Positions 11,792 through 55,270 of a stretch of 64,000 nucleotides of DNA are shown piece by piece; position 1 is the stretch's first letter; the number at the start of each line of letters is the position of its first letter. Made by a program: the position numbers and the translations under genes. The notes beneath the pieces were generated by a model. It had not been told where the DNA came from and made no database searches. It worked only from the letters and a program-made list of their open reading frames with translations. The stretch comes from Dudresnaya verticillata (taxonomy: Eukaryota): positions 434,001-498,000 of the forward strand of contig OZ374565.1 in assembly GCA_977862235.1 (NCBI GenBank), in the 5' to 3' direction.

Positions 11792-11820
11792 GCACATCAA
11801 GCGAAAACGTTTTGGGAGTG

Positions 11821-25621: not shown

Positions 25622-27239
25622 CACCCCAACAATGTGGAACGGGTTTGAAGAGCCGTAGTAGCTACTACATTAACAACGTACCAATCTATCGATATCATGG
25701 CGAGGCATGAGAAACTCTAAGCTCCCTGATCCTTCCCTATGCGGGACAAACATAATCAAGATAGCTTTTCTTGACCCGAGTACACTTTGCCTACCTCGGT
25801 AATGATGTGAGGTCGTAGTGGCTGTTAACCGCCGTGCACTCTTTGACCGTCGCCTTTCACATGAATTGTAAGTAGGTCCCCTTAAGGGCTGTAGTCTTAC
25901 CTATGCATGAAGGGCTCCCTCATCGTATTGTTTGCTTGTTTAGGCCAGGGCTTTGTCATGTACTATTGCGGTCTATTTTTCGTCAGTATTGACAATATGC
26001 AGTAATATTGCAATACTGAGAGAAAGGGCAATATTTATTGCTATTTGGTCCAATGTTTCACCAGATCGATTCCTCATATGCTATATGAAATATTCAGTCC
26101 AACGAGTCGGTATCACTATCATAGTATTGGTGACATTGATGTAGTAGACAGCACCCGCACCAACAGCATTAGTAGAATGTTGTCTGTCCAGTGTTCTCTC
26201 GATGACATATGAATGCAATCTTAGGCATTCGTTACTGTTTGGGTGCACTCCGACATATTCTATGAACAATTCCACGATACTTAACATATGCAGTGCAAGA
26301 GAGCAAACGTCTGGCCTTGGTAACTACTCTTGCTGTCGTTTTAAAGTGGACTCTTTTCTGTGTGTGAATCGTTTGATGCGTGTGTGTTGTGTCGTGCTGT
26401 CTATGTATGAACAGCCGAGGCTATGTAGAGCCTCTTCGCCACAACAAAATACTACGAAAGGAATGTATCTGAGATATACTGGCACTACGAGCTGTCACAA
26501 CGCTAGCGGTATATTATTGCCGTAGCTTTGGTGACACTCTACTATCAGAATGCAGCTGCAGTATTCGTGGAGTGCACTCTCTTACATGCAATACTTAGAC
26601 AACTGCCCTATACATACATATATATCTACTATTGAGATATATATTCAACTATATAAATAGTAGCATCTTTTCAGTCTGAAGACTATTTCCATAATGGCCT
26701 CGTTCTTTTCGTAATGGAACTGATACGGCGTTACCAGGAGCACTGTTCCTTAACACAAGCAGCATTTCTTATCTCTCAACTTTTAATTCCTTAAAAGAAA
26801 TACGTCAGCAGGCTGTCGACATCAAGAAAGAGACGACCGCATTTCGAAGCCCAGCATTTGAAGGTTGTCAAGGTACAACCGAGTAAAGGCTTAGAAGCCT
26901 TTAGGGTTACGGTACCTAATTACAGTGTCTTACACCTGGTGATATCGAAAGTGCAGAGTTTGTATGGATCTGGGGCGAATCAGTAGTTCCGGAGAGAGAG
27001 GACGAGTTTGAAGGTCCAGTGGAAGGTATAGAACGTACCCCATTGTGCACCCATTGCCCGAGAAGCACAAACATACGATTTTATGGCAGTGCAAATCCAC
27101 AAGGGGTCCCCAATATCTGATCTGATTGTCGGCGACAGGCCGTCTGCTCGACATCGCCTGATAGAGCGTGATGCGAGGACGTGAGAATATTAATTTCTAT
27201 CACAGATTCGAGTCTGTCTGGGTGTGGTGCAGTTGACAG

Positions 27240-27849
27240 TGTTACACATAGCGCTCGCACTGTTTGGGAGTACTCCCTACAATGGGATCCCAAAGCGCAC
27301 ACGCGACGCTGCAGGGTAATTCCCTAGAATGGGAGCCTGCTGGGGAACGCACTGCTGAACAATGGCAGACCCCACGGCCGATCATGGCTATCGCGCACAG
27401 ACCTGGTGAACCTGCACAAGGCAGAACTGCCGGTCTGACAAGGCGAATTTGCGTCCCTTCGGACAACCCTCTACATCTTATTGGCTAACGCTCAGGGTCC
27501 CCTGACAACAGGGTTCAGACCTGAATGACTTTCCGTCCGTCCCCGACCCACTGTGGGACGGCGGGTGTGAACACATCCACCTGTTCAGGTCTATCTGACT
27601 TGGAGCGGATCCCGCGAGCATGCGGGCCACAAATACTGTGGGTCGCTTTGAGCCGTCCGGCTGTAGAAATAATAAAGCCAGCACGCTGGCGTCGAACGAC
27701 GAAGACGAGGGACAACACACCACTCCTCATCCACGCCGTGACTTTGCCCTCCACTTTGCCAACCCCAACTTTCTCTCTACCGACCTTTTACTTTTCCGTT
27801 TCGCGTTCGCGATCTACTGCTTCGAAGGCAAAAGCGGTTACGCGTCACA
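27240..27849 (+). repeat. 5' LTR of element A
   Basis: TGTTACACAT...GCGTCACA; about 9 substitutions versus 43879-44488. Confidence 0.96.
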
Positions 27850-27899
27850 GTAATTACTTTTCCCCGGAGTAGTTTCGTTTTTGTTGACGAAGCGAGATT

Positions 27900-29665
27900 G
27901 TGTTCACGGTGACCAGCACTAGGAGTGCTACGAATGGATCCAATGCCCAAGATTCATGCACAAAATCCGTGTCCGTCAGACGATCGTCGAAACGGTGGAA
28001 GCGAAGGCTGATAGGACTGTCAACGGCTGACTTCGTCTTGTTCAAGCACGATCGCGAGATCTATGAACGACGAGTCGCTGAGAAGAATTCGGATCCGAAT
28101 GTTAAGATCCAGCTTACGACCTACAAGGACTCTATTCTACCTGCTGTGCTGGAGATCTTCGCACTAGGTGACTGGGTTCCGATGGACACCGTTGATGACA
28201 TCTGTAGTAGAATGGCTTTGAAGCCAACAGAGACGGCGACACGGCACGACAGCTGTCCTCAAAGAGCGATCCCACTCGCGTGGTTGGTAGCTCGGTAAAG
28301 GGGTGGTAGAGACTTGAAAGGGCTTAAAGCCCTAACAAAGGAAAAAGGGATAGGCGAACCCTGCTGAATAGAGCAATTCGTCGTAGACGACAGGGCTTGT
28401 AGACGCCCAAAGGGAAGTTGTAGCGGTAGCACCGTAAGCGTCCAAAAAGGGGAAAACCCAAGGCACAGACCGCTGCCGGTTTAGTGCCGGGCCCCTGCTA
28501 CTCAGGGGCCCCATAAATACAGCGAGAGCCGAAAAGTGCTCCTCGCTCAGTTAGAGCTCTATGGCTAATACTTAGCTAATACTGTACAATACAGGTACGA
28601 TATATCCTTAGATAGGAATGAGTGGTCAGGCCACAAGGCCCGCGCGGCGCCACTGTCAGGCGCCGTGCGGCAAACATCCGCCAGCAATGCATGGCGCGAT
28701 GGTGCGGCCATGGTTAATCCCCAAATGGCACAGGGCCATATTATCTGGAGCAGTGTGCCCTACAGATCAACTCTGTACACGTGTTGCCTTACAGCGCAGG
28801 AGCGTTCCAGCAATGAAATCAATCGGAGCACCAGCCATGTCATCCGGGCAGTTGTGCGCCCGTCATTCCTTACAGAGGACTCGTGTCCACGTGGCTCCTT
28901 ACAGGGCGTCAACGCCCGTTGTACCACAACATCACGGAGAACCATCTTGAGGACTGTGTGGCCAAGCAGGCTGTAGTTAATCCTGATGATTATGATCTTG
29001 GAAAGCTCGATGATTCCCTCAATGACTAGAAGCTCGGACGAGCGGATAGTGAACACAACCTAGAAGCCCAAGTTTAGCAGCTGATCTTTGAATACACCAA
29101 GATCTTACAGAACTGTGGTTACAATAAGTTTGCCGAACGGCACCCGAAGCTTGCCGTGGAGCACATACTGAAGCGTATCACTCACCCGTTCCTGAAGAAC
29201 CGCATGATCATGACTGCGCGTCTGAAGAAGGACGAGGACTTTCAGAAGAACTTCAAAGTTTTCGTACGAGAACTCGCGAAGGAGGCGCGGCTGATCGACC
29301 GCATGAACGCCGCCAAGAAATACAAAGCGCCCGCTACCGCTTTCGACAAGTTTGCTACTCGTGTTGCGGATGATCCGCCGCCGACGGCGCCATACCGATC
29401 GGGTAGTTCCGGTTCCGGACGTAAGAATAAGAACCGTTGTAATAAAGGTGGTGCATCTGGCAGTACTGCAGAAGATGGGAACCACAATCAAGACAAACCG
29501 TTCGGTGGTAACGATGGCAGAGGTAAACACTTTCGCGAACCTCCCCATTGTCTCAACCCAAAGTGCGACAAGCGCCATTGGGTTGATGACTGTGAAATAA
29601 CTGCGGACGCAGAGAAGAAACGTCTCAAGGATGAGTGCCGTGCGCGTTCGCAAGCGCGCAAGTGA
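27900..29665 (+). pseudogene. gag of element A, split by a solo LTR
   Basis: Frame ...WVPMDTVDDI|TENHLEDCVAKQ... rejoins across the insertion. Zinc knuckle CLNPKCDKRHWVDDC; in-frame stops present. The 5' limit is approximate. Confidence 0.82.
28203..28928 (-). mobile_element. Solo LTR (726 bp), B/G-like family
   Basis: Termini TGTAGTAG...GTACCACA with perfect TSD ACATC (28198-28202 / 28929-28933). Confidence 0.95.
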
Positions 29666-29737
29666 TCGAAGCAGGACTCAGAGAAGCGAGAAAACATCGG
29701 ATCTGTAGAACTACCTACCGAAGGAGAACACACTTCA

Positions 29738-30767
29738 ATGTTCTCAGCCTCATTCTGTTCAGGTGCTGTAGAGGTGTCCGCCTTAACCGATCAAGGTTCG
29801 GATGCTAATCTAATTTCACCATCAGTACTGAAGGAGATCTTACAGGCTGACCCAGATGTTCGAGTTGTGACTCTACCAAAGAAGCTGGAGTTCTCCAATG
29901 CTCATTCTTCTGCGGTGAAGATCACGTGCAGCAGGCAAGTATCCGCTGACGTAATGCTACGCGTACGCCATGGTACGAACCTCATGTTGCGAGGAATGAA
30001 GTGGCTGGTCACAAACGCTGCAGTACAGCACGTTTATGTCGGACGACATGTTCTCGCGTCTATAGGGTTGAACAACCGTGTCATGCTCGAGTTCGCGGCT
30101 GATAGATTCGGAGGAGTCGTCGACGTCCCAGAAGTTCTTCATAAGGATGGGAGTGGCGACAATCCTTGCGCCGACGCCGGTGCGTCTATCCATGGAATCC
30201 TTCGCGAACGCGGTTTGGATTTCGGAAGCACCTTCCACAGCAAAGGGGGTGCTGAGGACGATCAACTCGAAGACAGTAACGTCTACGTCGATCTTGGCGA
30301 GGACTCGCCGGATGATTTGAAACAGGCGATCGCCGCAATGGTCGAAGACGCTCGCAACAATGGACTGAGCGATACCGGAGCCGAACGGCTGACCTCTATC
30401 CTGGACAGGTACCCGGTTTTCGGATTCGGCTGGGCAAATCCCAACCAGTCGACGTTCCGCCAATGAGGGTACGACGTCAACAAGGATACCGACCGGTACG
30501 TTTGAAAGCAAGGAGATACTCCGGTGAACAAAGGAACTTCCTGAACGCGCGCGTCGTACGCGTACGTGGATCGGCTCAAGGAGATGGAATTTTCGAGGAG
30601 ATGACAACCGCCAAATGGCAAGCGGCACCTCTCCTTGTGCCGAAGCCTGGTTCCAGAGCTGGGTATCGTATGACCGTGGACCTTCGTCCGGCCAATGGCG
30701 CGACAATCAAAGAGTCGTGGCCAATGCCTCATCTGGACAGCGAGGTGTATGATTTCTCAGGGAGCAC
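29738..30767 (+). pseudogene. pol 5' part of element A: aspartic protease and RT N-terminus
   Basis: ALTDQGSDANLI protease motif; WQAAPLLVPKPG, YRMTVDLRPAN and WPMPHLD RT motifs; frameshifted. Confidence 0.9.
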
Positions 30768-31606
30768 TGTGGTGCAAGGGAAGGGCTGCCCCTTTTTCGC
30801 TGTGAGCGTATTATATGCCAACGTCTACCGACGGCACGTCGACCGCCGTTGGCGCGCGAACACGTCATGGACGGTTGGCCCACGGGCATACGGCCGCCGT
30901 TACCCGGCGCGGCGCACGCGCCCACTGTACGGCCAGATCCAGATGCACGATCCGGATCGGCCAGGCGCAAGGCGCACGCCTGTAAGCCTGGCCCGGATCC
31001 GGATCGGATCCGGATGGGACATCGGGATCCGGCATCGGGATCCACAGTGATGTAAGGAGCGCGTCTGTAATGGCCGCGCGCCAGCAATGCTGGTAGGGAT
31101 CTGGATCCGAATCCGGATCACCCACAATGCTACACGCATGCGCCTGTAAGCTACTCCTGAGCTCCCGCGCGCGCGGCTGCATGGCGACGACGACGTGTCA
31201 GACACTCGACGACGCGACACGCGTCCTGAGTCCCCGCGCACCGCGCCTGCCGCCGTCACTCACGTAGTATATGAGGTAATCCGTCTGAGACGCTGAGTAA
31301 ATCCCGGACAAGCCGGCCTTGGTCCAGACTTCCCCGTTCCGCACGCGCGTACCCTACCGCTGCCTACGGCTAAGCGTCTACCTCCCGTGCTTCTACGTCT
31401 ACCATCGTCCTTGACGTGCTCCCTTTCTGTTTCCTTTCCCCTTCCTTCACACCTTCCGCCTCGGGCGTCTACAGTCCGCCCAAGGCGTGCCCCTTTTGCT
31501 CTACCAACAACTCGCCCACGGCGGGACCACCTACCGCCAAGGGCGCAGCTACCCACCGAGCCCCGCACTGCTCGGCGGTCTATCGTCTCGGACGTTTTGC
31601 ACCACA
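30768..31606 (+). repeat. Complete 5' LTR of insert H (839 bp)
   Basis: Termini TGTGGTGCAA...TTGCACCACA, followed by a PBS. Confidence 0.9.
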
Positions 31607-31608
31607 TC

Positions 31609-31621
31609 TGGTCTCCCGACC
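31609..31621 (+). promoter_or_regulatory. Primer-binding site TGGTCTCCCGACC (possibly tRNA-Tyr)
   Basis: Starts with TGG 2 nt after the LTR. It is complementary to a tRNA ending ...GGGAGACCA, as yeast tRNA-Tyr does; the identity is tentative. Confidence 0.7.
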
Positions 31622-31810
31622 TAAAATTGTGCTACGTTTCAACGAGTTACTCCGTCGTGCGACGTCCGACTCTTCGTCTTCAGACGTTTGTCGCTAATCG
31701 TCCACGACGTTCAAGCAACTCTACGATTGTATCATGGCCTCACGACCGCCGCCGTCGAGAGGCCCAAGTTCAAGAAGACCGTCTTCGACGCCAGGGAGTG
31801 TACCCGCGTC

Positions 31811-33182
31811 ACAAGCGCCCTCGGAATGCAGCCGCGCGCCTGACACATTTGCCCACGCCACCGCGCGCGCCGCGCTAATGCTTACACCTACACGTGTTCA
31901 CGCACCGCGCTTACAGACTCTTGGTCCCATTGTCCTCCGCTGCCCTGTGACACGTGCCACGTGTGCAAGTATGCCACGGGGCGCAGCAGCGTGACCCAGT
32001 AACTACACCTCACGCGTTCTCTCAACCCGACATTGCCGTCACTATCCGCTGTGAGCGGGAGGTCTGGTTCTTGACCAAGTTGCCCGACAAAGTCGAATGA
32101 CTAGCGCCATCGGCGGAAACAGGGATCACGAGCGGGTTCGCGCCTCGAGCTCAATCCCAGTCGCCAAAGGCGGTAGAAACGTCAAAGACGGGAGCTATCC
32201 GTCTAGGACGGTACAGAGCGCCAGCGGCGTTGGATAATTTGCACCATATGGCCCCCTTCCAAAACGCGAACACGCGAAGAAAATTCGTGAGGAACGTATT
32301 ATTACCGGCCGTGCCGTGGTTATGTCACTTCCATTCCCCTCAAGGACGTGCGGCGTTGCCGAGTTTCCCGTCATAAGACGACTTGAGCAATTCACTAGTA
32401 GCGGTGTGCCCAGGGCTCCGAGGTCACCGGTGGTAGAACGTCCAAGACGGTTATCCCCGTGTAGGGCGGCTACCAGCGCTGCGCAGTAGCCGGGCGTCCA
32501 CGCGCATAAATAAACGATAAATTTTGACGGCATGCAGAAGCGCACCAATCAGCGTTCAATTTGCGTGCGGCGTGAAGCGCACCAATGAGCGCTCAATTTG
32601 GGTGTGCGCAGGTCACGTGCCTGTAAGCCCAAGCGCACCAATCAACGTCCAATTTGCGTGCAGCGCGAAGCGCACCAATGAGCGCGCAATTTGGGTGTAA
32701 GGCGAAGCGCACCAATGGGCGTTCAATTTCCTGGCGCACAGGTCACGTGCCTGTAAGCTCAAGCGCACCAATGAGTGTCCAATTTGCGCGCGGGGCGAAG
32801 CGCACCAATCACCATCCAATTTGGGTGTAAGCTGAAGCGCACCAATTAGCGCTTGATTTCCTTGTGCACAGGCCATTCGTCTGTAAGGCGGAGCGCACCA
32901 GTCATGCGTCGGGGGCTCTTACGTTCGGCGCGGCGTGCAGTGAACCGCCATCGGCGGGCGTGATCGTCAGGGACGGTATGAAAAACGCTAATGCGTGCGG
33001 TTGCGTCTTTGACGATATGGCGCGGCATGGCGCGGGTGCGGCCCAGCCGGAAAACGTCTGTGACGATATTGTGCGGCATGGCGCGGGTGTGCGCCATCCG
33101 GAAAACGTCTGAGACGGCATATCCTGGGATGGCGCAGGTATGCGCCAGCCGGGAAGCGTCTAGGACGATATAGCGCGGCATG
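31811..33182 (+). repeat. Long inverted repeat X, left arm (partner 38793-40162)
   Basis: Reverse complement matches with about 8 differences. The ORF track is mirrored (32195-32548 vs 39427-39780; 32613-32876 vs 39099-39362). Confidence 0.97.
32537..32903 (+). repeat. AAGCGCACCAAT repeat cluster with ~130-bp higher-order unit
   Basis: Nine copies spaced about 37, 57, 36, 37, 57, 36, 37, 57 bp; mirrored at ~39072-39438. Confidence 0.92.
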
Positions 33183-35497
33183 GCGCGGGTGTGCGCCAGC
33201 CAGAAAACGTCTGAGACGGTATATCTTGGGATTGCGCAGTTGTGCGCCAGCCCGGAAGCGTCTCGGACGATATAGCGCGGCAGGGCGCGAGTGCGTCTCA
33301 GCCGGAAAACGTCAATGACGATGCAAAGCGGCCGCGGCGGATCACCGTGTGGCCTCAAACGTCAATGACGATATGTAACGTCGATAACGATAAGATTCGG
33401 CACATTTCTGCTTACCCGAGAACGAAAACGTCAATGACGATATGCAACGTCTATCACGATACGAAGCGGCTCGTTCAGGGTGACCACGAACGTGCCAACG
33501 TCGATGACGGTGAAACGGGGCACTTCGCAGGTAAGCGCGTGCCCCAAAACGTCGATGACGACATTGAGCGTCGATGACGATAAGAAGCAGCTGTGGCGGG
33601 TGACCGGGTGGACCACGAACGTTCAAACGTCGACGACGGTGAAAAGGTGCACAGTGGAGGTAACCACGTGTCCCAAACGTCAATGACGCTATTGAGCGTC
33701 GACAACGTTGCAAAAGGGGTCGACAAGAGTGACCGCGTTGACCAAAATGTCATTGACGGTATGCAACGTCGATGACGATATTGAGCGGCCGTGTTAGGAG
33801 CCTGCCCCTACTAAAAACGTCGATGACGATATGAGACGTCCATGACGGTACGAAGTGGAACGGCATGGGTTACCGAGTACAACAAAACGTCAATGACGAT
33901 ATTCAACGTCGGTAACGGCACGAGGCGGCACATGCGGTTGACCCCGAGTACCAAAACGTCCATGACTGTGAAATGACGGTACGAAGCGGCACATGGCAGC
34001 TGTCCGTGAGTCTGCAAACGTCTGTGACGGTAAACTTGGCAGTTCGCGTGTGATCGCGTGCACGTAACGTCAATGACGACACGCAACGTCGATGACGGTA
34101 TGAAGCAGCACATTGCGGGTGCCGCGATCCTTAAGACGTCGACAACGGTGAGGTGTGGCTCGAGGAGGGCAACCGCGTGCACTAAAGCGTCAATAACGAT
34201 ACAAAACGTCGATGACGATTCGAAGACGCCGTTGCCGGAGACCGCGAGCCTGAGCACGTCGACGACGGCACCAAATGGCACTGCACGGGTTACCGCGAGC
34301 CGGGAAAACGTCTATGACGGTATTGAGCTGGCATGGCGCGGTGATTCGCAAGCCGGGAAACGTCTGTGACGGTGTGTATCTGTGTGCTGCGAGTGAACGC
34401 GCAACGGCAGAACGTCTGTGACGGCGTATTTCGGCATAGAACAGGGTTGTGCGAGCCGTGTGCGAGCCGCGACCCGCACCAAAACGTCAATGACGATACG
34501 AAACGTCGATGACGACAGGAAACGGCACGTTTCGGATGACCACGAGCCGGAGAACGTCGACGACGGTGCTATATCGCACTAAGTGGCTGACCGAATTCAC
34601 TAGAACGTCGATGACGATACGAAACGTCGAAGACGATACGAAGCTGTCTTTGCTTGTGACCACGGGTACCAAGTGCTGCAAAGCGTCAGTGACGGTATAA
34701 AGCGACGTTGCGTGGGCTTCACCGCGCGACTGAAGAGCAGGAAACGTCAATGAAGGTAAAAAGCAACATGTCGCGAATATCGGCGAAACGTCATTGACGG
34801 GATATCAAGGCAATAGGCCGGTTGCAGCAGAGCGGGAATCGTCGGTGACGGTAGAGAGCAGCATGGCACCGATATTCTCGTGGCATGAAACGTCCATGAC
34901 GATAATGAAACCACATGTGCCAGGTTTCTGTGTACTCGACGTCGACGACGATATACCGCAAGAGGGATCGGGTGATCACGAGTTTGCAATCGTCGATGAC
35001 GGAAAACACAGTATGGCGTGAGTAACCACGATCCAAGAATCGTCTTTGACGCTAAAATGCGTCATGAGACGGTTGGTCGCGTTCCAAGCGTCGATGACGG
35101 TATCAATCGCTTCAGCGAGATAGTGCGGCTGAGTACGCATCGGTGATCGTACATGACGGAAAAGGCAACATGGTCCACATGTCGTGAGTAACCATGCGAA
35201 TGAATCGTCTGTGACGGTGCAAAGCGGCACGCCGGGCATGGAACGCGAAGTCGCGTGCAGAACGTCAACAGTGATTAACAACCAAGTGGAGACCCCGGAG
35301 GGCCCGATTTCGATATTGTTCCAACGTCTCAAGACGGGTAAGTGTTACACCGACTCTGTCGAACCGATGAATCGTCGAAGACGTATTGGTGCGTACTGCG
35401 GTCTTGAACGTCAACGACGTTTTTGGTGGGATGGGTGTCCGGAATCACAATATCCAGTGGATATTCGGCCAAGCCGGCTTGAGCTCCGTCATCGACG
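33004..35497. repeat. Phased array of the palindrome CGTCnnnGACG with diverged spacers
   Basis: About 50-55 perfect or one-mismatch copies, mostly 50-52 bp or 19 bp apart. Confidence 0.95.
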
Positions 35498-35699
35498 CTC
35501 TATTGTTAGACTTGAACTTGAGCGCTCGGATGCACGGAGGGCAGACTCGCCAGAGGCGGAAATACGGATGACGACACGTTCGGCAGGGGATATAAAGATC
35601 CCCTGTTAGGCGAACGGTCGGAAACGTCGCATATCGGCATAGCCGGGAGAGCCGAAGCAAACACGGGGCGGACACGGTATTCCGACTTCATCGTCATGC

Positions 35700-37786
35700 G
35701 TCTTGACCGTTCGAACGATGGTTCACTGCCAATCGCCCATGACGGGCGCCTTGAAGAGGCCCCAGGGGACAGTGATGGTCGGGACGGACCCACAGTATTC
35801 TCAAAAACGTAGAAAAACGTCGTGGACGAGTAGCGAAACGCTTTGAAAGCGGTTGATCGGTCGTCGCACGACGTTGCAGTTCGTAGAAACGTAGTCCGTC
35901 CGCAAGTGGTCGTACCCTGCGCGTTACGCGCTCGCTTACTCCACCTCCGGCACCACGCCAAGTTGGCAGGGCACCCAGGGGGGCGTAAGTTGTATCATAC
36001 GCTTCGACGCGAATACTATTGGCCATCGATGCCAGTGGACTGCTATGCGACCGTCCGCAACTGCGTAACCTGCGCTAAGAATCGCGTATTGCTGCGAAAG
36101 AACACCAAGTAATTGAAGTTGTTCCCGGCAACCGAGCCTCTCGAATTCGTATCGATCGACATCCTGGGCGAACTCATACGCACGAAGCGAGGAAACAAGT
36201 TCCTACTCGTCATTGTGGACCGCTTTTCGAAGCTGGTCCGGACGGTCCCACTGCGTAGTATTGCGGCATTGGAAATCGCTAAGGCGTTTGTACGAAATTG
36301 GGTCTTCGGGTACGGTCCTCCCAAGACATTGTTGTCCGACAACGGACCACAGTTTGTGGCTAAGCTGTTTCAGGATATCTGCCGTCTTTTGGGAGTGGAG
36401 AATCTCTTCACCACGACGTACCATCCGCAATGCAATGGCCAGGTAGAACGATTCAATCGAACTATCCTGGCCTCGCTGCATCACTACGTCGCGGATCATC
36501 CGAGAGACTGGGACCTGTTCACGGATGCCTTGACGTTCGCATACAACACCCAGTTGCATTCTTCTACGCATCTCGCTCCGTTTGAATTGGTGCTGTCTAA
36601 GCCACCACGGCTATTGTCGCTCGAAGCGGAACCGTCGCTCGAAAGTGTACCCACCGCGGGGCAATACTACACCAAGTGGCGAACCTGGCTGGCCGCACTG
36701 ATGGGAGCCGCTAAAGCGTCGTTGGAGAAAACTCAAGCACGTTACAAACGACACTTCGATACCAGATTAAGGAAATCGAAGGAAGCAATCGCCATAGGCG
36801 ACTTCGTATTCGTACGTAAGGAATACTTCGCCCCAGGCGGGAGCACGGATAGCGCAGAGCGTAAGCATAAGCTGGCACCAGTGGCGGACGGACCATACTG
36901 GGTAACTCACGTTGATAACGAGACAGTAACCGTCGACAAGGGACGGGATGAGCGGGAACGTTTGTCCCAAGATCGCGTGGTCTGGGCGCCGACCCCACCG
37001 GGTCAGGCGGCCCCTCCAATCGTCGTACCACCAGGCCCGCCTGAGGAGCAGGGAGCAGTCGCCCCCACGTCACACGACGAAGGGATGACTACCCCAAGCA
37101 CGCCGCCAGCGGACCCGGAAGAGGACGCAGACACTTCGCATACTGCGAGAGATCCGCAAGAGCGTACGATCGCAGCGTCACGCAGTCGTGGGTTGGCAGA
37201 GCGTTCGCCCTTCGCCGCCGATCCCGACGACCGCGCTTCGCAATCCGTCTCCAACGACGACAGTACCCCAGGGGTTCGCACCCGTTTGGAACACGTCGCT
37301 ACGGCACCGCCGAATGAGAACAATGACTCAGCTGAAAGCGCGTCCGATAACGAAGACGTTAACCGTGCAAGCACGAAGCAAGGCGCTGCAAGCGATGAAA
37401 TCGTCTCAAGACGCAACAACCCACTGGCCGCTGATCGAGCGTCCGAGGCCCAAGGCCAACGCCTTCGGCGATCAACTCGTCGAGTACGCTTGGCCGAACC
37501 GGAACAGACGCCCATCACGCAACGAGACAAACCGCCAAAGGCGCTGGACAGGCCCACGTCCAAGCCGAACGCTGTGAGCGGAAAATAATACATGATTGAA
37601 CGCATCGAGTCGCACGCGTACGCGGATGATGATGAGATCCTCTACCGCGTCAAGTGGTTTGGATACCCCGCTTCAGCGAACACCTGGGAGCCAGTCTACA
37701 GTTTTCCGCGATCCCACGTCACACGATACCACCGTCGAAAACGTACGCAGCTACCGCCAAACGTCGACGACGCGGAGCGCGGCTAA
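35700..37786 (+). pseudogene. Gypsy integrase with C-terminal chromodomain, belonging to insert H
   Basis: HHCC zinc finger (HHAKLAGHPG...CVTC), DDE core (VSIDILG, LLSDNGPQF, NGQVERFNR), GPY module, ~200-aa disordered spacer and chromodomain IERIESH...YRVKWFGYPASANTWEP. In-frame stops near 36110 and 37586. The 5' limit is approximate. Confidence 0.93.
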
Positions 37787-38792
37787 CCCTAATCCGGAAA
37801 TACCGCTGGAAGCGAATGGACGGACGATCGAGACCGCGTGTTCGACCTACGATCGCCAAAGGCGCGGAAGCGCAACCCATAGCCTGTGGACGCGGTCGCC
37901 AGAGCGACAGCGCCAAACACGTGTGCACACCATGGACGAACGCGGACGCAAGTCGTTGCGTCATAGACAGCCTCTCGCACGCCACCTCGCAGCAGCCCCA
38001 ATACGGAACCTCTGGATGGGTGCGCTGTTGACAGTGGATCCAGATCGCAAATCGAGATCCACCACCGGCGCCCCTCAGGTAATAGGAGGCAGTAGTTGGT
38101 CAAATTTTAATTTCCAAACACGGCAGCGCGCACCACCCCGCCGTCAACGCACGACGAACGCAATCATGCCAAGTGGCTGATCAGGTGCTACGAGCCCCAG
38201 CGACGACAGGCTCAAGTGGCAGCGCACAACAACCGTCTCCGACGTCGAGACGTGCACTCGCCCCACGGCCAAGTCCCTGGGACCGCCACCCTGCCGGCCA
38301 CGGTCTCGCGCGCAAGCACCCGTCGAACGTCTCCGACGTATCTTGCCGGAGAAGGGGCGCACCGACAAACCCACCCCCGAAGGGGGGGAAGATGGTTGAA
38401 GACGCATTTGCTGTGGGTTCCGTGCACGACGCGCCAACAAATCGCCAACGACTCCACCGCTGCCCGTGGCCGCCGCGGTCGCAGTCGCGCGAGCGCGACC
38501 GACAACTCTACCCTACCCCCAAGAAGGAACGTCGAAGACGAAAGGGGCGGCAACGCTAAGGCGTCAACACCTACCTCACCGCCTTCGCGACCCTCGTTGA
38601 GGACGCCGACAAACCACGCCTAAGGCGCAGTGCGACACATGCATTATAAAAACGCTAAGTAAGCGGAAATACACCAACGCCGCACGTGAAACACGAAGAA
38701 AAACGCTACTACAGTGGACACTACCAGCCAAACACAGCCGCAGCGCAACGCACGGCCAAGGCTAAAGGCATCAAACGCCAACGCTACGGTAG

Positions 38793-40162
38793 CATGCCGC
38801 GCTATATCGTCCTAGACGCTTCCCGGCTGGCGCACACCTGCGCCATCCCAGGATATACCGTCTCAAACGTTTTCCGGATGGCGCACACCCGCGCCATGCC
38901 GCACAATATCGTCACAGACGTTTTCCGGCTGGGCCGCACCCGCGCCATGCCGCGCCATATCGTCAAAGACGCAACCGCACGCATTAGCGTTTTTCATACC
39001 ATCCCTGACGATCACGCCCGCCGATGGCGGTTCACTGCACGCCGCGCCGAACGTAAGAGCCCCCGACGCATGACTGGTGCGCTCCGCCTTACAGACGAAT
39101 GGCCTGTGCACAAGGAAATCAAGCGCTAATTGGTGCGCTTCAGCTTACACCCAAATTGGATGGTGATTGGTGCGCTTCGCCCCGCGCGCAAATTGGACAC
39201 TCATTGGTGCGCTTGAGCTTACAGGCACGTGACCTGTGCGCCAGGAAATTGAACGCCCATTGGTGCGCTTCGCCTTACACCCAAATTGCGCGCTCATTGG
39301 TGCGCTTCGCGCTGCACGCAAATTGGACGTTGATTGGTGCGCTTGGGCTTACAGGCACGTGACCTGCGCACACCCAAATTGAGCGCTCATTGGTGCGCTT
39401 CACGCCGCACGCAAATTGAACGCTGATTGGTGCGCTTCTGCATGCCGTCAAAATTTATCGTTTATTTATGCGCGTGGACGCCCGGCTACTGCGCAGCGCT
39501 GGTAGCCGCCCTACACGGGGATAACCGTCTTGGACGTTCTACCACCGGTGACCTCGGAGCCCTGGGCACACCGCTACTAGTGAATTGCTCAAGTCGTCTT
39601 ATGACGGGAAACTCGGCAACGCCGCACGTCCTTGAGGGGAATGGAAGTGACATAACCACGGCACGGCCGGTAATAATACGTTCCTCACGAATTTGCTTCG
39701 CGTGTTCGCGTTTTGGAAGGGGGCCATATGGTGCAAATTATCCAACGCCGCTGGCGCTCTGTACCGTCCTAGACGGATAGCTCCCGTCTTTGACGTTTCT
39801 ACCGCCTTTGGCGACTGGGATTGAGCTCGAGGCGCGAACCCGCTCGTGATCCCTGTTTCCGCCGATGGCGCTAGTCATTCGACTTTGTCGGGCAACTTGG
39901 TCAAGAACCAGACCTCCCGCTCACAGCGGATAGTGACGGCAATGTCGGGTTGAGAGAACGCGTGAGGTGTAGTTACTGGGTCACGCTGCTGCGACCCGTG
40001 GCATACTTGCACACGTGGCACGTGTCACAGGGCAGCGGAGGACAATGGGACCAAGAGTCTGTAAGCGCGGTGCGTGAACACGTGTAGGTGTAAGCATTAG
40101 CGCGGCGCGCGCGGTGGCGTGGGCAAACGTGTCAGGCGCGGCTGCATTCCGAGGGCGCTTGT
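38793..40162 (-). repeat. Long inverted repeat X, right arm
   Basis: Reverse complement of 31811-33182. Confidence 0.97.
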
Positions 40163-40709
40163 CACACGCACGACGGAACGACACGTGTCCTGAGTTCCCG
40201 CGCGCCGCAGCGCCACCGCCGTCGCCCACGCAGCAGTAGTAATACTTAGGTAACCCGTCTAGGACGTCCCAGTAAACCCCGGCAAGCCGGTATGCCTTCA
40301 CACTTCGCCCCTTCGCTCGTTAGCGTCACTGCCGCTACCGACGTTGGCTACGCGTTGCGACGATCGCGCTTCCGCGTCAATGTCCGTCTTTGACGTGTAT
40401 CCCCTTTTGTTTTCCCCCTTTATGGCCTTGGTAGCCGAATGCCCCTTCCCGCTAGTGTGTGCGTCGCCACCGCTTCCGTTAGGCAAAGCGTCGGTACCAC
40501 CGTCCCTCCACGTGCAACACCGTCGTTGACGTGTTTCCATTTCCGTCTTGTCTCGTTTCTTTGGTTTCGATCTACCTACCGCCCAGGGAGTTTACAGTCC
40601 GCCTTGTGGCGTTGTCCATGCTCTACCACCCCTACCGTCTCTGACGTGCTACCCGCCGGGTCTCGAACTGCCCGGGCATGTTTTTCCGTCCTAGACGTTT
40701 TGCACCACA
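40163..40709 (+). repeat. 3' half of a diverged H-family LTR, direct orientation
   Basis: Resembles 31203-31606 (GACACG.GTCCTGAG...GGTAA.CCGTCT..GACG...AGTAAA) and ends GACGTTTTGCACCACA. Confidence 0.82.
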
Positions 40710-41144
40710 TCTGACACGTCGTCGTCGCCATGCAGCCGCGCGCGCGGGAGCTCAGGAGTAGCTTACAGGCGCATGCGTGTAGCATTGTGGGTGATCCGGA
40801 TTCGGATCCAGATCCCTACCAGCATTGCTGGCGCGCGGCCATTACAGGCGCGCTCCTTACATCACTGTGGATCCCGATGCCGGATCCCGATGTCCCATCC
40901 GGATCCGATCCGGATCCGGGCCAGGGTTACAGGCGTGCGCCTTGCGCCTGGCCGATCCGGATCGTGCATCTGGATCTGGCCGTACAGTGGGCGCGTGCGC
41001 CGCGCCGGGTAACGGCGGCCGTATGCCCGTGGGCCAACCGTCCATGACGTGTTCGCTCGCCAACGGCGGTCGACGTGCCGTCAGTAGACGTTGGTATATA
41101 ATACGCTCACAGAGAAAAAGGGGCAGCCCTCCCCTTGCACTACA
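40710..41144 (-). repeat. Inverted copy of the 5' half of LTR H (30768-31202)
   Basis: Reverse complement matches with about 8 substitutions in 435 bp. Confidence 0.96.
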
Positions 41145-41149
41145 AGCAC

Positions 41150-43838: not shown

Positions 43839-43878
43839 CAAGCTTCTTTGTTCACGCTGAACAGAAGCTTGGGGGCAC

Positions 43879-44488
43879 TGTTACACATAGCGCTCGCACT
43901 GTTTGGGAGCACTCCCTACAATGGGATCCCAAAGCGCACACGCGACGCTGCAGGGTAATTCCCTAGAATGGGAGCCTGCTGGGGAACGCACTGCTGAACA
44001 ATGGCAGACCCCACGGCCGATCATGGCTATCGCGCACAGACCTGGTGAACCTGCACAAGGCAGAACTGCCGGTCTGACAAGGCGAATTTGCGTCCCTTCG
44101 GACAACCCTCTACATCTTATTGGCTAACTCTCAGGGTCCCCTAACAACAGGATTCAGACCTGAATGACTTTCCGTCCGTCCCCGACCCTCTGTGGGACGG
44201 CGGGTGTGAACACATCCACCTGTTCAGGTCTATCTGACTTGGAGCGGATCCCGCGAGCATGCGGGCCACAAATACTGTGGGTCGCTTTGAGCCGTCCGGC
44301 TGTAGAAATAATAAAGGCAGCACGCTGGCGTCGAACGACGACGACGAGGGACAACACACCACTCCTCATCCACGCCGTGACTTTGCCTTCCACTTTGCCA
44401 ACCCCAACTTTCTCTCTACCGACCTTTTACTTTTCCTTTTCGCGTTCGCGATCTACTGCTTCGAAGGCAAAAGCGGTTACGCGTCACA
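43879..44488 (+). repeat. 3' LTR of element A
   Basis: Direct repeat of 27240-27849. Confidence 0.96.
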
Positions 44489-45946
44489 AGAGCAATGAGG
44501 AAGCGATGATTCTTTTTAATGAATGTGTACGGTGGTCTTATGCGTGGGGCTGTTCCCGACAGGCAAGCATACCGGTGGGGTTTGGGTCTATCCTATGGAA
44601 GGGTTTGAGTTATGTGAGAACCTAAAGGGTTTTTTGGGGGACCCGAAAGGGTAAAATCGTGCCTGCAGGCGTCTCGGATGGACGAGATTGCACCGACGAT
44701 GGCGCAGAGATTACATGCGCCAAGTGATGGTAGCGAAAGGGCTTTCAGAGACTGGGCCAGGAGTTGGGCTTCTTCGTCGAAAAATGGGTACCGAGGCGGG
44801 ATGAGGAACGTCCAGACGTGCCACTGATTTCCGCTTTCCTCCTCTGCGGTTCGACAACTTCAAGACAGGTGCTAACCGGTTTGCAGAGTACACAGGGCCA
44901 GGGAATCGCCCAGATAATTCCGCAAACCATTCTTGTAGCAGCGCTTCGCGCAATTCCCTCTGCGCTCCTGTGTGTCGGGGTGCTTGGCACCAAAAACACG
45001 TTGTGTAGTCTTAACAGCAAGTGTTATTTGAGCAAGCCGGGAGATCAGAAGTTTTGCTACGTCAACAAGGTTTCGTAACCCGCGCGCATCATAGTGCCCT
45101 AAAACGTATGCTGAGCGTTAGAAAAGGATGTCCGATGCGGAAGAGGTCCCTGAGATCCTGCTAACGTGTGGCAGTGGTAACAAAATTGCCGTCAGGAACG
45201 CAAAAGCTGCTCTAGAAGTCACTCAGAGGGACACAGGTGTAGAGAAACCTCGGGGTAGAGGACAGGAGTCCGTCTACAGTACGTTTAATGTGGTGAAGTG
45301 GGGTCGGCTGCGTACGAGCGCAGATGAAGTGCCTAGATACGCAGGGTAGTGTGCAATCGCAAGCGTAGGTTCAGATGCCGCAGGTCTTCACTTAGGCTGA
45401 AATGTATAGGACTATTGCCGATTGGCATCACAACACTTTACGTATGTGTACAGACGGACCTACGCTGTATAGCGACTAACTTACCCAAGAGCCGGCAGCT
45501 CACACTGTTGCTCAGTCAGCAGTGGCTGCGACGCTTCCCCGGCTCGGGTTCACGGAGAGCGCCTCTGGGTGGCGCTTCGGCCAAAAGACACAGCCAATCA
45601 TGGCGGTTTACACTTACGGTGCCGTCACGAAACGCAAACCGCGAAGCTCCGCACCAATTACAAAGCGGAGCGCCGCTTAACATTAATTTTGTGCACTCTA
45701 CAGTACGCACTGTACTCTAATTTATGGGAAAATTCCCCCGGTCAAGGACACGCGATGGACTCCGCGATAAGTTAGAGCGAGGATGGTATGCCGCGGCACG
45801 GAGGGGAAGGGTATTCGGTCAATGCAAAGTTTACTTAGGCGTTACAACGCGGAAAGGTCCACTAGCTAATCGGGCGCTCCCCCACTCACACCAATCTACT
45901 ATCCCTAGGGAGCGTCCGATGCGAGCACTACAATGAGGAAATGACG

Positions 45947-49853: not shown

Positions 49854-50179
49854 GCTCACACCGCGGAAGGGCAAGGCTAAGGTTGATAAGAACAACAGGT
49901 CCAAAGACGGTCAGAAAGGCAGTGCTACCGACCGGGGAAACTCCGTAAACAATGCAGGGAAGGACCGGGAACGTCCTGCGCCTATTTTTCTAAACGAGGT
50001 CTGTGCGAAGAAGTGGAAGCTCCATCCTGGAGGGGTTCGTAATTGCCCGTTCACCGACCCTGAGAAGGCTGAGGCCGTGATCAAGGAACACATTACCCGC
50101 AAGTGAGATAAGGCTGAGGAGGCAAGGCAGGTTCGCTTCGACCAACAAGACATTTATGTGAATACTACGCTAATGGGAG

Positions 50180-55255: not shown

Positions 55256-55270
55256 TGAAGAAGGGGGGTC

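What the first reader, a model, noticed from the sequence alone, without database searches (positions are those of the whole stretch)
33004..35497. ~50-copy phased array of the palindrome CGTCnnnGACG with unique spacers
Seen: an 11-bp dyad (CGTC-N3-GACG, usually preceded by AAA) recurs at about 33004, 33056, 33106, 33157, 33208, 33259, 33310, 33360, 33379, 33429, 33448, 33499, 33550, 33569 and so on to ~35490. Spacing is mostly 50-52 bp or 19 bp (doublets). Only the first ~6 units share spacer sequence; afterwards the ~40-nt spacers look unrelated while the motif arms and spacing persist and the central 3 nt vary freely. Ordinary minisatellite decay should erode motif and spacer alike. Inference: a selected platform of helically phased sites (51 bp is about 5 turns) for a dimeric DNA-binding protein, such as transposase subterminal sites, an anti-silencing factor or a chromatin/segregation factor. 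A repeat-spacer RNA template is the alternative.
Basis: partly seen in the sequence, partly recalled or inferred. Interest (0 to 1): 0.85.

Follow-up and report, generated by a model that had tools for sequence, protein, structure and literature searches.

The report
Iterated mini-palindrome array in red-algal retroelement
A 2.2-kb run of 50 evenly spaced copies of the small palindrome CGTC-N3-GACG lies inside a 10.4-kb retrotransposon-derived insertion in a likely red-algal genome, and related 4+3+4 palindromes are written over the whole insertion, even across its integrase reading frame, so they are likely a selected recognition signal of that element family.

Summary
The array is real. There are 72 exact CGTC-N3-GACG sites in the window against 1.7 expected, and 50 consecutive slots (33004-35206) are spaced 49-52 bp or exactly 19 bp. 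The spacers are not unique. All units descend from one 51-bp unit: arm identity is 95.5%, spacer identity 37.6%, random 26%. It is neither coding nor CRISPR-like.

The array sits in a 10,377-bp insertion (30768-41144). This insertion has a 5-bp target duplication, TGTNR ends and 2.4-kb inverted arms. Its only recognisable coding content is a 5'-truncated chromovirus integrase-chromodomain frame. It is nested in the reverse-transcriptase gene of another Ty3/gypsy element, in a likely florideophyte red alga.

The motif is one member of an element-wide class, CGNN-N3-N'N'CG. Perfect dyads make up 39-69% of CG-N7-CG sites in the arms, array, integrase frame and 3' region (33% in a short 336-bp stretch), against 6% by chance and 6-17% in flanking DNA. 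Only a 3-nt centre is enriched. Mixed half-sites are absent. The integrase frame holds 18 dyads against 2.1 in synonymous-codon shuffles.

Best reading: a selected, self-complementary recognition signal of this family, with the array as its densest cluster. It is probably read as a small stem-loop, though duplex binding by a dimer remains a strong rival. The function is untested.

The parts
33004..35256 (+). Phased array: 50 consecutive slots of (AAA)CGTC-N3-GACG(RTA). 39 are long units of about 51 bp and 11 are short units of exactly 19 bp, often arranged as 'doublet + single' of about 121 bp.
35257..35497 (+). Decayed tail of the array: three further exact sites (35373, 35409, 35487) at irregular spacing.
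33004..33322 (+). Young part of the array: six 51-bp units (102-bp higher-order period, 86% matches). The first 3.5 units also lie in the inverted right arm (38793-38971).
30768..41144 (+). Inserted element of 10,377 bp. Its ends read TGTGG... and ...CTACA. It holds 70 of the window's 72 exact CGTC-N3-GACG sites and 125 perfect CGNN-N3-N'N'CG dyads.
30763..30767 (+). Left copy of the 5-bp target-site duplication AGCAC.
41145..41149 (+). Right copy of the 5-bp target-site duplication AGCAC.
30768..33182 (+). Left inverted arm. 30768-31202 and 31805-33182 match the right arm at 98.2% and 99.2-99.3%.
38793..41144 (-). Right inverted arm. Homology to the left arm stops abruptly at 38793, inside a 51-bp unit.
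31203..31804 (.). Middle segment of the left arm. Its counterpart (40169-40709) lies in direct, not inverted, orientation and is only about 77% identical.
32537..32904 (+). 130-bp and 37-bp repeats carrying about 9-10 CCAAT-containing boxes. The mirror copy is at 39075-39438.
35586..35603 (+). Palindrome GGGGAT-ATAAAG-ATCCCC holding a TATAAAG, about 90 bp after the last array site and about 240 bp before the integrase frame. No function was tested.
   Evidence: Read
35834..37786 (+). One reading frame with integrase H2C2 zinc domain, rve core, GPY/F motif, a long low-complexity linker and a chromodomain. It has in-frame TAA stops at 36110-36112 and 37586-37588, no start codon, and no RT, RNase H or gag upstream. 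It carries 18 perfect dyads.
37787..38792 (+). Non-coding stretch between the chromodomain and the right arm. 7 of 18 CG-N7-CG sites are perfect dyads.
27237..30767 (+). Left part of the outer Ty3/gypsy element: a 613-bp repeat (27237-27849) and ORFs ending in the N-terminal RT motif at the insertion point.
41145..44488 (+). Right part of the outer Ty3/gypsy element: the rest of RT, RNase H, integrase, and the second copy of the 613-bp repeat (43876-44488, 98.4%).

Best explanation
The array is the densest cluster of an 11-nt self-complementary motif (CGNN, three free bases, N'N'CG) that is kept all over a chromovirus-derived retroelement, and it likely serves as a multi-copy recognition signal that would be read as a small 4-bp/3-nt stem-loop on the element's single-stranded RNA or cDNA by a factor specific to this element family.

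Shown:
- The array arose by tandem amplification of a 19-bp and a 51-bp unit.
- The units then diverged to near-random spacers. All 50 slots kept the dyad arms, and most kept the unit length.
- The same kind of dyad, with covarying inner pairs, is strongly enriched through the arms, the integrase reading frame and the 3' non-coding part. It is not enriched in the neighbouring retroelement or the flanking genes.

Inferred:
- The constraint acted in the active lineage before this copy inserted. Since insertion, mutations have hit sites in the right arm.
- The reader of the signal is family-specific, for example a Gag/nucleocapsid-type protein of autonomous relatives.
- The array gives high avidity, as a packaging or coating signal would.
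- Divergent spacers let a repeat array survive repeat deletion during reverse transcription.
For: 1. Conservation is site-specific. Arms are 95.5% pairwise identical, spacers 37.6% and random sequence 26%. 50 of 50 slots keep the motif with at most one mismatch. 29 of 39 long units are 49-52 bp and 11 of 11 short units are exactly 19 bp.

2. The motif is element-wide. Exact CGTC-N3-GACG counts outside the array are 10 in the left arm (0.07 expected), 5 in 35498-38792 (0.24 expected) and 12 in the right arm (0.09 expected). The other 33.8 kb of the first 44,161 bp holds 2.

3. There is covariation. In the element outside the array the counts are CGTC..GACG 27, CGCC..GGCG 21 and CGGC..GCCG 7. 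The mixed forms CGTC..GGCG and CGCC..GACG give 0 and 1.

4. Of CG-N7-CG sites, both inner pairs are complementary in:
- 27 of 50 (left arm)
- 46 of 67 (array)
- 18 of 43 (integrase frame)
- 7 of 18 (3' part)
- 24 of 50 (right arm)
- against 21 of 185 (host), and 4 of 23 and 1 of 18 (outer gypsy). Chance is 1 in 16.

5. Stems in the unique part are CGCC 16, CGTC 15, CGCT 6, CGCG 5, CGGC 4, plus seven rarer CG stems.

6. The adjacent units at 32162 and 32180 share the loop AAA and the 3' G, and differ only by the C-G to T-A pair swap.

7. The geometry is exact. Only a 3-nt centre is enriched: 82 against 25.1 expected, z 14.6. Centres of 0-7 nt were compared. Neither the flanks nor the outer centre bases extend the dyad.

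8. The dyads are overlaid on coding sequence. The integrase-chromodomain frame has 18, against 2.11 +/- 1.35 in synonymous-codon shuffles (0 of 2000 reach 18). Four control ORFs have 0-1.

9. The signal is family-specific, which fits an element-encoded reader rather than a host transcription factor. The flanking 27 kb and the outer gypsy are at background.
Against: - A 4-bp stem with a 3-nt loop is thermodynamically marginal on its own.
- Inside the array the stem never varies (C-G, G-C, T-A in 30 of 30 aligned units). The only departures are unpaired cells at the inner pair, in 5 of 30 units. The array itself therefore gives no covariation.
- Half of the dispersed counts come from the two arms, which are copies of each other.
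- Dyad classes could each have spread by duplication, so the covariation rests on few independent events.
- The wobble test was inconclusive. Near-dyads with a C.A-type mismatch on the + strand number 25 and the G.T type 13, and the excess has the same sign in the sense integrase region and in the inverted arm.
- Dyads recur in pairs 18-22 bp apart: 8 of 21 intervals in the left arm and 11 doublets at exactly 19 bp. Cooperative binding to duplex DNA would explain that equally well.
- This copy has no gag, and no autonomous relative or second copy could be examined.
- No expression data were available.
Confidence: 0.4

Rival explanations
1. The dyads are binding sites on duplex DNA for a dimeric sequence-specific protein, either a host transcription or chromatin factor or an element-encoded one. 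The array would then be an enhancer-, insulator- or tethering-type platform in the U3-like or upstream regulatory part of the element.
For: - The site is an interrupted 4-3-4 palindrome with a variable centre, the classic form of a dimer site.
- Sites are paired at 18-22 bp in the arms (8 of 21 intervals) and at exactly 19 bp in 11 doublets. The unit length of about 51 bp is also kept.
- The array lies next to an array of CCAAT-containing repeats and about 90 bp upstream of a TATAAAG that precedes the integrase frame.
- Oriented flanks (A before the site, G or A then T, A after it) are kept.
Against: - A homodimer that accepts T, C or G at half-site position 3 should also accept mixed sites. 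Mixed sites number 0 and 1 against 27, 21 and 7 homotypic ones.
- 18 dyads are overlaid on the integrase reading frame, where regulatory sites are not expected.
- The 27 kb of host DNA shows no use of the motif.
- 51 bp and 19 bp are 4.86 and 1.81 turns, so the sites are not on one face of the helix.
Confidence: 0.3
2. The array is an ordinary internal tandem-repeat array of a Ty3/gypsy element with no function of its own. [quoted passage not shown]
For: - Tandem arrays in the non-coding 3' part of gypsy elements are common, and their function is stated to be unknown (PMC11963269, passages read).
- All units derive from one 51-bp unit.
- The minimal 3-nt centre is the smallest loop a snap-back could make.
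- Since insertion the right arm has lost two sites by C-to-T changes, which shows no present constraint.
Against: - Spacers have diverged to 37.6% identity while the arms stay at 95.5%, and no slot has lost its site.
- Unit lengths are kept despite about 1.3 substitutions per site between spacers (calculated).
- The neighbouring gypsy element, also copied by reverse transcription, shows no such palindromes.
- A bias that makes only 4+3+4 palindromes ending in CG is not a known mutational process (recalled knowledge, no call).
Confidence: 0.2
3. The sites are subterminal binding sites for the element's own integrase acting as a cut-and-paste transposase, in a Ginger- or TDD-like DNA transposon with very long inverted repeats.
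For: - The element has inverted arms, TGTNR ends, a 5-bp duplication, and an integrase as its only recognisable coding content.
- TDD-4 and TDD-5 are integrase-bearing transposons with 5-bp duplications, and Ginger ends read TGTNR (PMC2836005, passages read).
Against: - The integrase frame has no start codon and begins where a pol polyprotein would continue. It also has two in-frame stops.
- It carries GPY/F and a chromodomain, and its best named relatives are red-algal polyproteins with RT and RNase H.
- The large array is at one arm only.
- The terminal sequences do not contain the dyad.
- The arms are 2.4 kb, against 45-297 bp in the Ginger2 table and about 40-270 bp given for Ginger1 in that paper.
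Confidence: 0.07

Closest known systems
Internal tandem-repeat arrays of Ty3/gypsy retrotransposons (Retand, Ogre/Tat type, between pol and the 3' LTR)
   Same: It is a family-specific array of short tandem units (tens of bp) in the non-coding part of a gypsy-type element. Its function is unknown, as the literature also states (PMC11963269, passages read).
   Different: - The units here are old and diverged, yet an 11-bp dyad and the unit length are kept.
- The same dyad class is spread over the whole element, including coding sequence.
- The host is probably a red alga.
- In this copy the array adjoins an inverted arm upstream of a truncated integrase, not the pol-3' LTR interval.
Gypsy insulator of Drosophila (about 12 Su(Hw) sites in the 5' untranslated region). 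Recalled, not checked in a call.
   Same: It is a cluster of many short conserved sites separated by variable spacers, inside a Ty3/gypsy element.
   Different: - Those sites are asymmetric zinc-finger sites for a known host protein.
- Here the sites are self-complementary with covarying halves, number about 50 in the array, and also occur in coding sequence.
Dispersed packaging-signal stem-loops of single-stranded RNA viruses. Recalled. One paper on the topic (PMC6475782) was seen only in a search listing.
   Same: Many short, individually weak stem-loops of one geometry are distributed through the genome, coding regions included. Stem sequences vary but stay complementary.
   Different: - In those viruses the conserved recognition motif is in the loop. 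Here the loop varies and the closing CG...CG is fixed.
- No capsid or Gag partner is known here.
- No array form is known there.
Ginger/TDD integrase-bearing DNA transposons (PMC2836005, passages read)
   Same: They share terminal inverted repeats, TGTNR ends, a 4- or 5-bp duplication, and an integrase with an H2C2 finger and DDE core as the only gene.
   Different: - The arms here are 2.4 kb.
- The integrase is a start-less pol fragment with a chromodomain.
- No subterminal repeats or tandem arrays are mentioned in that paper ('subterminal' 0 and 'tandem' 0 occurrences).
Highly iterated palindromes of bacterial genomes (HIP1 of cyanobacteria). Recalled, not checked in a call.
   Same: A short palindrome is over-represented throughout a replicon, coding sequence included.
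   Different: - HIP1 is one fixed 8-mer across a whole genome.
- Here it is a class with covarying inner pairs, confined to one mobile element of a eukaryote and amplified into a phased array.

Membership tests
Ty3/gypsy chromovirus (LTR retrotransposon) | Integrase with H2C2 zinc domain, rve core, GPY/F motif and a C-terminal chromodomain | tested here: met
   Pfam hits: Integrase_H2C2 2e-16, rve 4.6e-13, Chromo 1.6e-09. GPYWV is seen in the translation. Identity to chromodomain-bearing relatives is 55-64%, including Chondrus crispus polyproteins.
Ty3/gypsy chromovirus (LTR retrotransposon) | Two long terminal repeats in direct orientation | tested here: not met
   The 2.4-kb terminal repeats are inverted.
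Ty3/gypsy chromovirus (LTR retrotransposon) | gag, protease, reverse transcriptase and RNase H upstream of the integrase | tested here: not met
   121 stop-to-stop ORFs from 26933-44859 were scanned: 120 of at least 75 aa, plus the 65-aa chromodomain frame added by hand. Inside 30768-41144 the only hits that reach Pfam's curated cut-off are integrase domains and the chromodomain.
Ty3/gypsy chromovirus (LTR retrotransposon) | TG...CA ends and a 4-6 bp target duplication | tested here: met
   The ends read TGTGG...CTACA, and AGCAC lies on both sides. The flanks carry adjacent parts of one RT motif in one frame.
Ty3/gypsy chromovirus (LTR retrotransposon) | Primer-binding site and polypurine tract next to the LTRs | tested here: inconclusive
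   A purine-rich run lies near 38376-38392, and TGTGG-like words lie at 35789 (minus strand) and 38413. Their local alignment scores 21, against a shuffle maximum of 28. No tRNA-complementary site was found by eye.
Ginger/TDD DNA transposons | Short terminal inverted repeats (45-297 bp in the Ginger2 table; about 40-270 bp given for Ginger1) with TGTNR ends | tested here: inconclusive
   The TGTNR ends are met. The arms are 2.4 kb, far outside the range given in PMC2836005.
Ginger/TDD DNA transposons | A self-standing transposase gene (own start, optional introns) without pol context | tested here: not met
   There is no ATG before the zinc finger. Stops lie at 35810 and 35831 upstream, and two TAA stops lie inside the frame. 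Homology starts where relatives continue from RNase H.
Ginger/TDD DNA transposons | Integrase groups with Ginger1 or Ginger2 in a tree | not tested
   No tree was built. The best named hits are red-algal gypsy polyproteins.
Retrotransposon internal tandem-repeat array (Retand/Ogre type) | Array of at least 3 tandem units in the non-coding part of a gypsy-type element | tested here: met
   TRF and anchored alignment find 50 units.
Retrotransposon internal tandem-repeat array (Retand/Ogre type) | Position between pol and the 3' LTR | tested here: inconclusive
   In this rearranged copy the array abuts the inner end of the inverted left arm, and only 3.5 units remain at the right arm after the chromodomain. 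The parent arrangement is unknown.
Repeat-spacer (CRISPR-like) array | Identical repeats separated by unrelated, unique spacers | tested here: not met
   The spacers align to one consensus and are 37.6% identical pairwise, against 26.1% when shuffled. The genome is eukaryotic.
Coding tandem repeat (17-aa unit) | An open frame through the array | tested here: not met
   There are 12-47 stops in each of the six frames, and the longest open stretch is 166 codons. The 19-bp units shift the frame. The array ORFs gave only one sub-threshold Pfam match (FitA-like_RHH, E 0.0015, 18.8 bits against a cut-off of 27).
Foldback-type transposon | Long inverted arms built of tandem subrepeats, little or no coding content | tested here: inconclusive
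   The arms contain 130-, 37- and 51-bp subrepeats, but they are mostly unique sequence, and an integrase fragment lies between them. The target-duplication length for this family was not checked.

The most novel reading that the evidence does not exclude
A retroelement family carries a 'hairpin code'. About 125 copies of one mini stem-loop (a CG-clamped 4-bp stem with a 3-nt loop) are written across non-coding and coding sequence and amplified into a 50-unit array. They would act as a multi-copy packaging or coating signal for a family-specific protein. This would be a eukaryotic retrotransposon counterpart of the dispersed packaging signals of RNA viruses. In a gag-less copy like this one, it would be a way to out-compete autonomous relatives for their particles.
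Probability: 0.25. Interest if true: 0.8.

Novelty: new variant of a known kind. Interest (0 to 1): 0.6.

Why it matters
Tandem arrays inside Ty3/gypsy elements are widespread, and a recent survey still states that their function is unknown (PMC11963269). In this array the units are old enough to show what has been preserved: an 11-nt self-complementary motif and the unit length.

The same motif class is overlaid on the element's own coding sequence, with 18 dyads against 2 expected. That gives a concrete, mutable target. Wild-type, arm-mutant, mixed and compensatory probes can be used to ask whether such arrays are recognition platforms, and whether they are read as duplex DNA or as hairpins.

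The finding also documents an unusual insertion form in the little-studied transposons of red algae: inverted LTR-like arms, a 5-bp duplication and only an integrase fragment.

Tried and rejected
- Whole genome: none is held, so copy number and other copies could not be examined.
- Sequencing runs: none was listed and no RNA holder was listed.
- Earlier findings: five look-ups returned nothing.
- Rfam at gathering thresholds: 0 matches in the window.
- Relatives of the array elsewhere:
  - A three-site phased pattern was scanned in metagenome contigs.
  - A slightly stricter version (first site NAT-centred) scanned in prokaryote genome contigs gave 5 loci.
  - The pattern scanned in viral contigs gave 3 loci.
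  - The hits I inspected were single matches in GC-rich DNA, coding 9-bp repeats, or simple 19-bp satellites (L003, L011, L024, L059, L063, L077). None had the 51-bp architecture or convincing element-wide dyads.
- A conserved larger hairpin in the spacers: young units fold strongly (z down to -3.95) and the mean z over 39 spacers is -1.08. One anti-diagonal showed weak excess pairing (z 3.6). On the alignment the helix is only 44% paired and no better than shuffles. Rejected as a maintained structure.
- G-U wobble asymmetry to tell the functional strand: 13 against 25, with inconsistent sign. Inconclusive.
- LTR boundary by similarity of 35789 (minus strand) and 38413: alignment score 21, below the shuffle maximum of 28. 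Not accepted.
- Protein coding in the flipped middle segments of the arms: tblastn found no credible conservation.
- Literature: five spellings of the motif found one paper, on a bacterial C-protein operator, which matched only the inner GTCNNNGAC (listing only). A search on short palindromes, packaging signals and retrotransposons gave nothing relevant (listing only). One search failed on a term-syntax error and was not repeated.


Full report
**1. The observation**

CGTCNNNGACG occurs 72 times in the 64-kb window. Shuffles give 1.73 on average, and the largest shuffle gives 7. Forty-three exact copies lie in 33004-35497.

Allowing one mismatch gives an unbroken series of 50 slots from 33004 to 35206. 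Ten of them carry a single arm mismatch, and no slot has lost the site. Start-to-start distances are 51 (17 times), 19 (11), 50 (7), 52 (3), 59 (3), 49 (2), and six single values between 44 and 72. Beyond 35206 only three loosely spaced sites follow.

- The spacers are not unrelated. All 39 long units align to a single 51-bp consensus.
  - Among 24 old units of 49-52 bp, pairwise identity is 95.5% in the eight arm positions, 54% in the centre and 37.6% in the spacer. Shuffled spacers give 26.1%, with a maximum of 26.9%.
  - The first six units are 74.6% alike in the spacer.
  - TRF also sees a period of about 129 bp. The site spacings show a recurring order of 'doublet, then single' with a period of about 121-128 bp.
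- The centre is not free. GAT, AAT, TGT and GAC dominate.

The array is therefore an old, diverged tandem repeat. What stands out is how unevenly it has decayed. From 37.6% identity I calculate about 1.3 substitutions per site between spacers. The dyad arms are nearly intact, and unit lengths are held to 49-52 bp in 29 of 39 long units and to exactly 19 bp in 11 of 11 short ones.

The array is not coding. Each of the six frames has 12-47 stops, and the 19-bp units shift the frame. The array ORFs gave no Pfam match above threshold (one FitA-like_RHH match at E 0.0015, below the cut-off). Rfam finds nothing in the window.

Exact helical phasing is not shown. 51 bp is 4.86 turns and 19 bp is 1.81 turns at 10.5 bp per turn.

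**2. Where it lies**

The window is eukaryotic.
- It carries an RRP5-like gene (S1 and HAT repeats) and a VWA-domain gene.
- The best named relatives of the RRP5 piece are from Chondrus crispus (43%) and Gracilaria domingensis (41%).
- The best named relatives of the integrase are from Chondrus crispus and Agarophyton chilense.
- The host is therefore probably a florideophyte red alga, not close to either genus.
- CpG is not depleted. Observed/expected is 1.01 in the host part, 1.35 in the element and 1.62 in the array.

The array lies inside a 10,377-bp insertion at 30768-41144.
- Its ends read TGTGG... and ...CTACA.
- The pentamer AGCAC stands directly outside both ends (30763-30767 and 41145-41149).
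- The left flank ends in ...YDFSGST and the right flank starts STCFASLDFVSGYWQ, which are adjacent parts of a reverse-transcriptase motif in one frame.
- The insertion thus sits in the RT gene of an outer Ty3/gypsy element. That element's 613-bp repeats lie at 27237-27849 and 43876-44488 (98.4% identical). Its RT C-terminal part, RNase H and integrase follow at 41145-43955.

The insertion has 2.4-kb inverted arms. 30768-31202 pairs with 41144-40710 at 98.2%, and 31805-33182 pairs with 40168-38793 at 99.2-99.3%. In all there are 17 mismatches in 1,811 aligned bases.

Between the arms, in order, lie:
- the array;
- about 340 bp containing a palindromic TATAAAG (35586-35603);
- one reading frame (35834-37786) with an integrase H2C2 finger, rve core, GPY/F motif, a long low-complexity linker and a chromodomain;
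- about 1 kb of non-coding DNA.

The integrase frame has two in-frame TAA stops and no start codon. Its homology to relatives begins where their polyproteins continue from RNase H. Among 121 ORFs scanned from 26933-44859, the only hits inside the insertion that reach Pfam's cut-off are the integrase domains and the chromodomain; none is gag, protease, RT or RNase H.

Homology between the arms ends abruptly at 33182/38793, in the middle of a 51-bp unit. The right arm keeps 3.5 units, whereas the left arm runs on into the full array.

I read the insertion as a chromovirus-derived, non-autonomous element with LTR-like arms in inverted orientation. How that form arose is not settled.
- An aberrant self-templated strand transfer during reverse transcription, followed by a deletion in the right arm, would give this layout.
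- That scheme does not explain the flipped middle segment of the arms, which is only 77% identical.
- The candidate LTR boundary I looked for is not statistically supported.
- A Ginger/TDD-like cut-and-paste element is the alternative. TGTNR ends and a 5-bp duplication fit it (PMC2836005, passages read). The start-less pol fragment and the 2.4-kb arms do not.

**3. The motif is element-wide and self-complementary**

Seventy of the 72 exact sites lie in the insertion. Outside the array the left arm has 10 (0.07 expected), the stretch 35498-38792 has 5 (0.24 expected) and the right arm has 12 (0.09 expected). The other 33.8 kb of the first 44,161 bp has 2.

Counting all 256 possible 4+3+4 palindromes in the insertion outside the array showed a second one, CGCC-N3-GGCG, with 21 copies. 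21 of its 24 window copies lie in the insertion. CGGC-N3-GCCG has 7. The mixed, non-palindromic combinations CGTC..GGCG and CGCC..GACG number 0 and 1.

More generally, I took all CG-N7-CG sites and counted those in which both inner pairs are complementary. Chance is 1 in 16.

| Region | Perfect dyads / CG-N7-CG sites |
|---|---|
| Left arm | 27 of 50 |
| Array | 46 of 67 |
| 35498-35833 | 3 of 9 |
| Integrase frame | 18 of 43 |
| 3' non-coding part | 7 of 18 |
| Right arm | 24 of 50 |
| Host DNA | 21 of 185 |
| Outer gypsy, left part | 4 of 23 |
| Outer gypsy, right part | 1 of 18 |

Further properties of the dyads:
- The stems in the unique part are CGCC 16, CGTC 15, CGCT 6, CGCG 5, CGGC 4, CGAT 2, CGTT 2 and five singletons. 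Both inner pairs therefore covary.
- Only a centre of exactly 3 nt is enriched: 82 palindromes against 25.1 expected, z 14.6. Centres of 0-7 nt were compared.
- The dyad extends neither outward nor inward.
- In the left arm the dyads recur in pairs 18-22 bp apart, in 8 of 21 intervals. CGCC and CGTC sites are mixed within one cluster (32162, 32180, 32200, 32219).
- The neighbouring units at 32162 and 32180 share the loop AAA and differ only by the C-G to T-A pair swap.

The dyads are also superimposed on coding sequence. The integrase-chromodomain frame holds 18. Shuffling synonymous codons among identical amino acids gives 2.11 +/- 1.35, and 0 of 2000 shuffles reach 18. Two ORFs of the outer gypsy and two host ORFs hold 0-1.

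The right arm differs from the left by C-to-T changes that destroy two sites (32974 and 33109 in left-arm coordinates). So this inserted copy is no longer under the constraint, as expected for a dead copy. The pattern must have been shaped in the active lineage.

**4. How it most likely works**

Shown:
- The array arose by tandem amplification of 19-bp and 51-bp units.
- The dyad arms and unit length were retained over long divergence.
- A family-specific class of 4+3+4 self-complementary 11-mers is distributed over the whole element and overlaid on its coding sequence.

Inferred: what is preserved is self-complementarity. This fits recognition of a small stem-loop on single-stranded RNA or cDNA better than reading of two half-sites on duplex DNA. 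A dimer that accepts several half-site variants should also accept mixed sites.

The family specificity and the presence in coding sequence suggest a reader encoded by autonomous relatives, for example a Gag/nucleocapsid-type protein. The array would then be a high-density cluster of such signals in the non-coding (U3-like or 3') part. Divergent spacers would help a repeat array to survive repeat deletion during reverse transcription (established knowledge of retroviral template switching, recalled).

I hold this reading at about 0.4. The weaknesses are:
- a 4-bp stem is marginal;
- the array itself shows no covariation, since its stem is invariant apart from five broken inner pairs;
- the dyad classes may have spread by duplication from few events;
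- the wobble test was inconclusive;
- the paired 19-20-bp spacing suits cooperative duplex binding equally well.

The rivals are as follows.
- Duplex binding by a dimer, forming an enhancer-, insulator- or tethering-like platform next to the CCAAT-box repeats and the TATAAAG: about 0.3.
- A functionless internal array plus a family-specific templating bias: about 0.2.
- Integrase or transposase subterminal sites: below 0.1.

**5. Comparison with what is known**

Tandem arrays in the non-coding 3' part of Ty3/gypsy elements are well documented in plants, and their function is stated to be unknown (PMC11963269, passages read). This array belongs to that general phenomenon, but with features I did not find described:
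- near-perfect retention of a dyad and of spacing in otherwise diverged units;
- an element-wide, covarying palindrome class that also overlays coding sequence.

A full-text search for five spellings of the motif found one paper, on a bacterial operator, which matched only an inner part of the pattern (listing only).

No related array was found in scans with phased-site patterns of metagenome, prokaryote-genome and viral contigs (analysed in 26, 27, 51, 52, 66).

**6. Verdict**

The 'unique spacers' part is wrong, and the repeat-spacer and coding alternatives are excluded. The new evidence shifts the likely reading from paired half-sites on duplex DNA towards a self-complementary signal used throughout one retroelement family.

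It is best filed as a new variant of a known kind (retrotransposon-borne tandem arrays), of moderate to high interest. The decisive data are other copies in the genome, transcripts and binding assays, none of which were available here.

Noticed in passing
window 1-19840 and 44162-64000: A 44,161-bp direct duplication at 99.85% identity (29 mismatches and 1 gap column in 19,839 aligned bases). It is either a tandem segmental duplication or uncollapsed haplotypes. The unit holds the host genes plus the nested retroelements.
   Followed up: partly
window 27237-27849 and 43876-44488: The 613-bp repeats of the outer gypsy are 98.4% identical, but the 5 bp outside them do not match each other. The outer element is therefore not a simple single insertion, or its flanks were rearranged.
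   Followed up: partly
window 31203-31804 and 40169-40709: Within arms that are otherwise 98-99% identical and inverted, a segment of about 600 bp lies in the same absolute orientation in both arms. It is only about 77% identical, with many gaps, and is bounded by short inverted repeats. It looks like a flipped or exchanged segment and remains unexplained.
   Followed up: partly
window 32537-32904 and 39075-39438: 130-bp repeats, made of 37-bp subrepeats, each carry CCAAT-containing boxes (GCGCACCAAT...), about 9-10 per arm. They lie next to an AT-rich TATA-like stretch at about 32505-32528 and look like a promoter-proximal box array.
   Followed up: no
window 35586-35603: A TATAAAG is embedded in a 6-bp-armed palindrome (GGGGAT...ATCCCC) between the array and the integrase frame.
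   Followed up: no
window 36110-36112 and 37586-37588: The integrase-chromodomain frame is broken only by two TAA codons. Two TAG codons lie just upstream (35810, 35831). Otherwise about 650 codons are open and well conserved against relatives.
   Followed up: yes
window 30993-31043 and 40869-40919: Short CCGGAT/GGATCC-type simple repeats lie near the outer part of both arms.
   Followed up: no
L024 1291-1547 and L077 992-1188 (metagenome contigs): Two related environmental contigs carry a 19-bp satellite whose unit starts with CGTCGATAACG or CGTCGGTAACG. These are the same variant sites and the same 19-bp period as the second member of several doublets in the array. No coding or element context was recognisable, so a relationship is unproven.
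   Followed up: partly
L011 3044-3383 (metagenome contig): A 19-bp simple repeat contains AACGTC(G/A)ATGACGA, identical to the extended motif of the array. It is embedded in ACGACA-type low-complexity DNA downstream of a eukaryote-like gene and is probably coincidental.
   Followed up: partly
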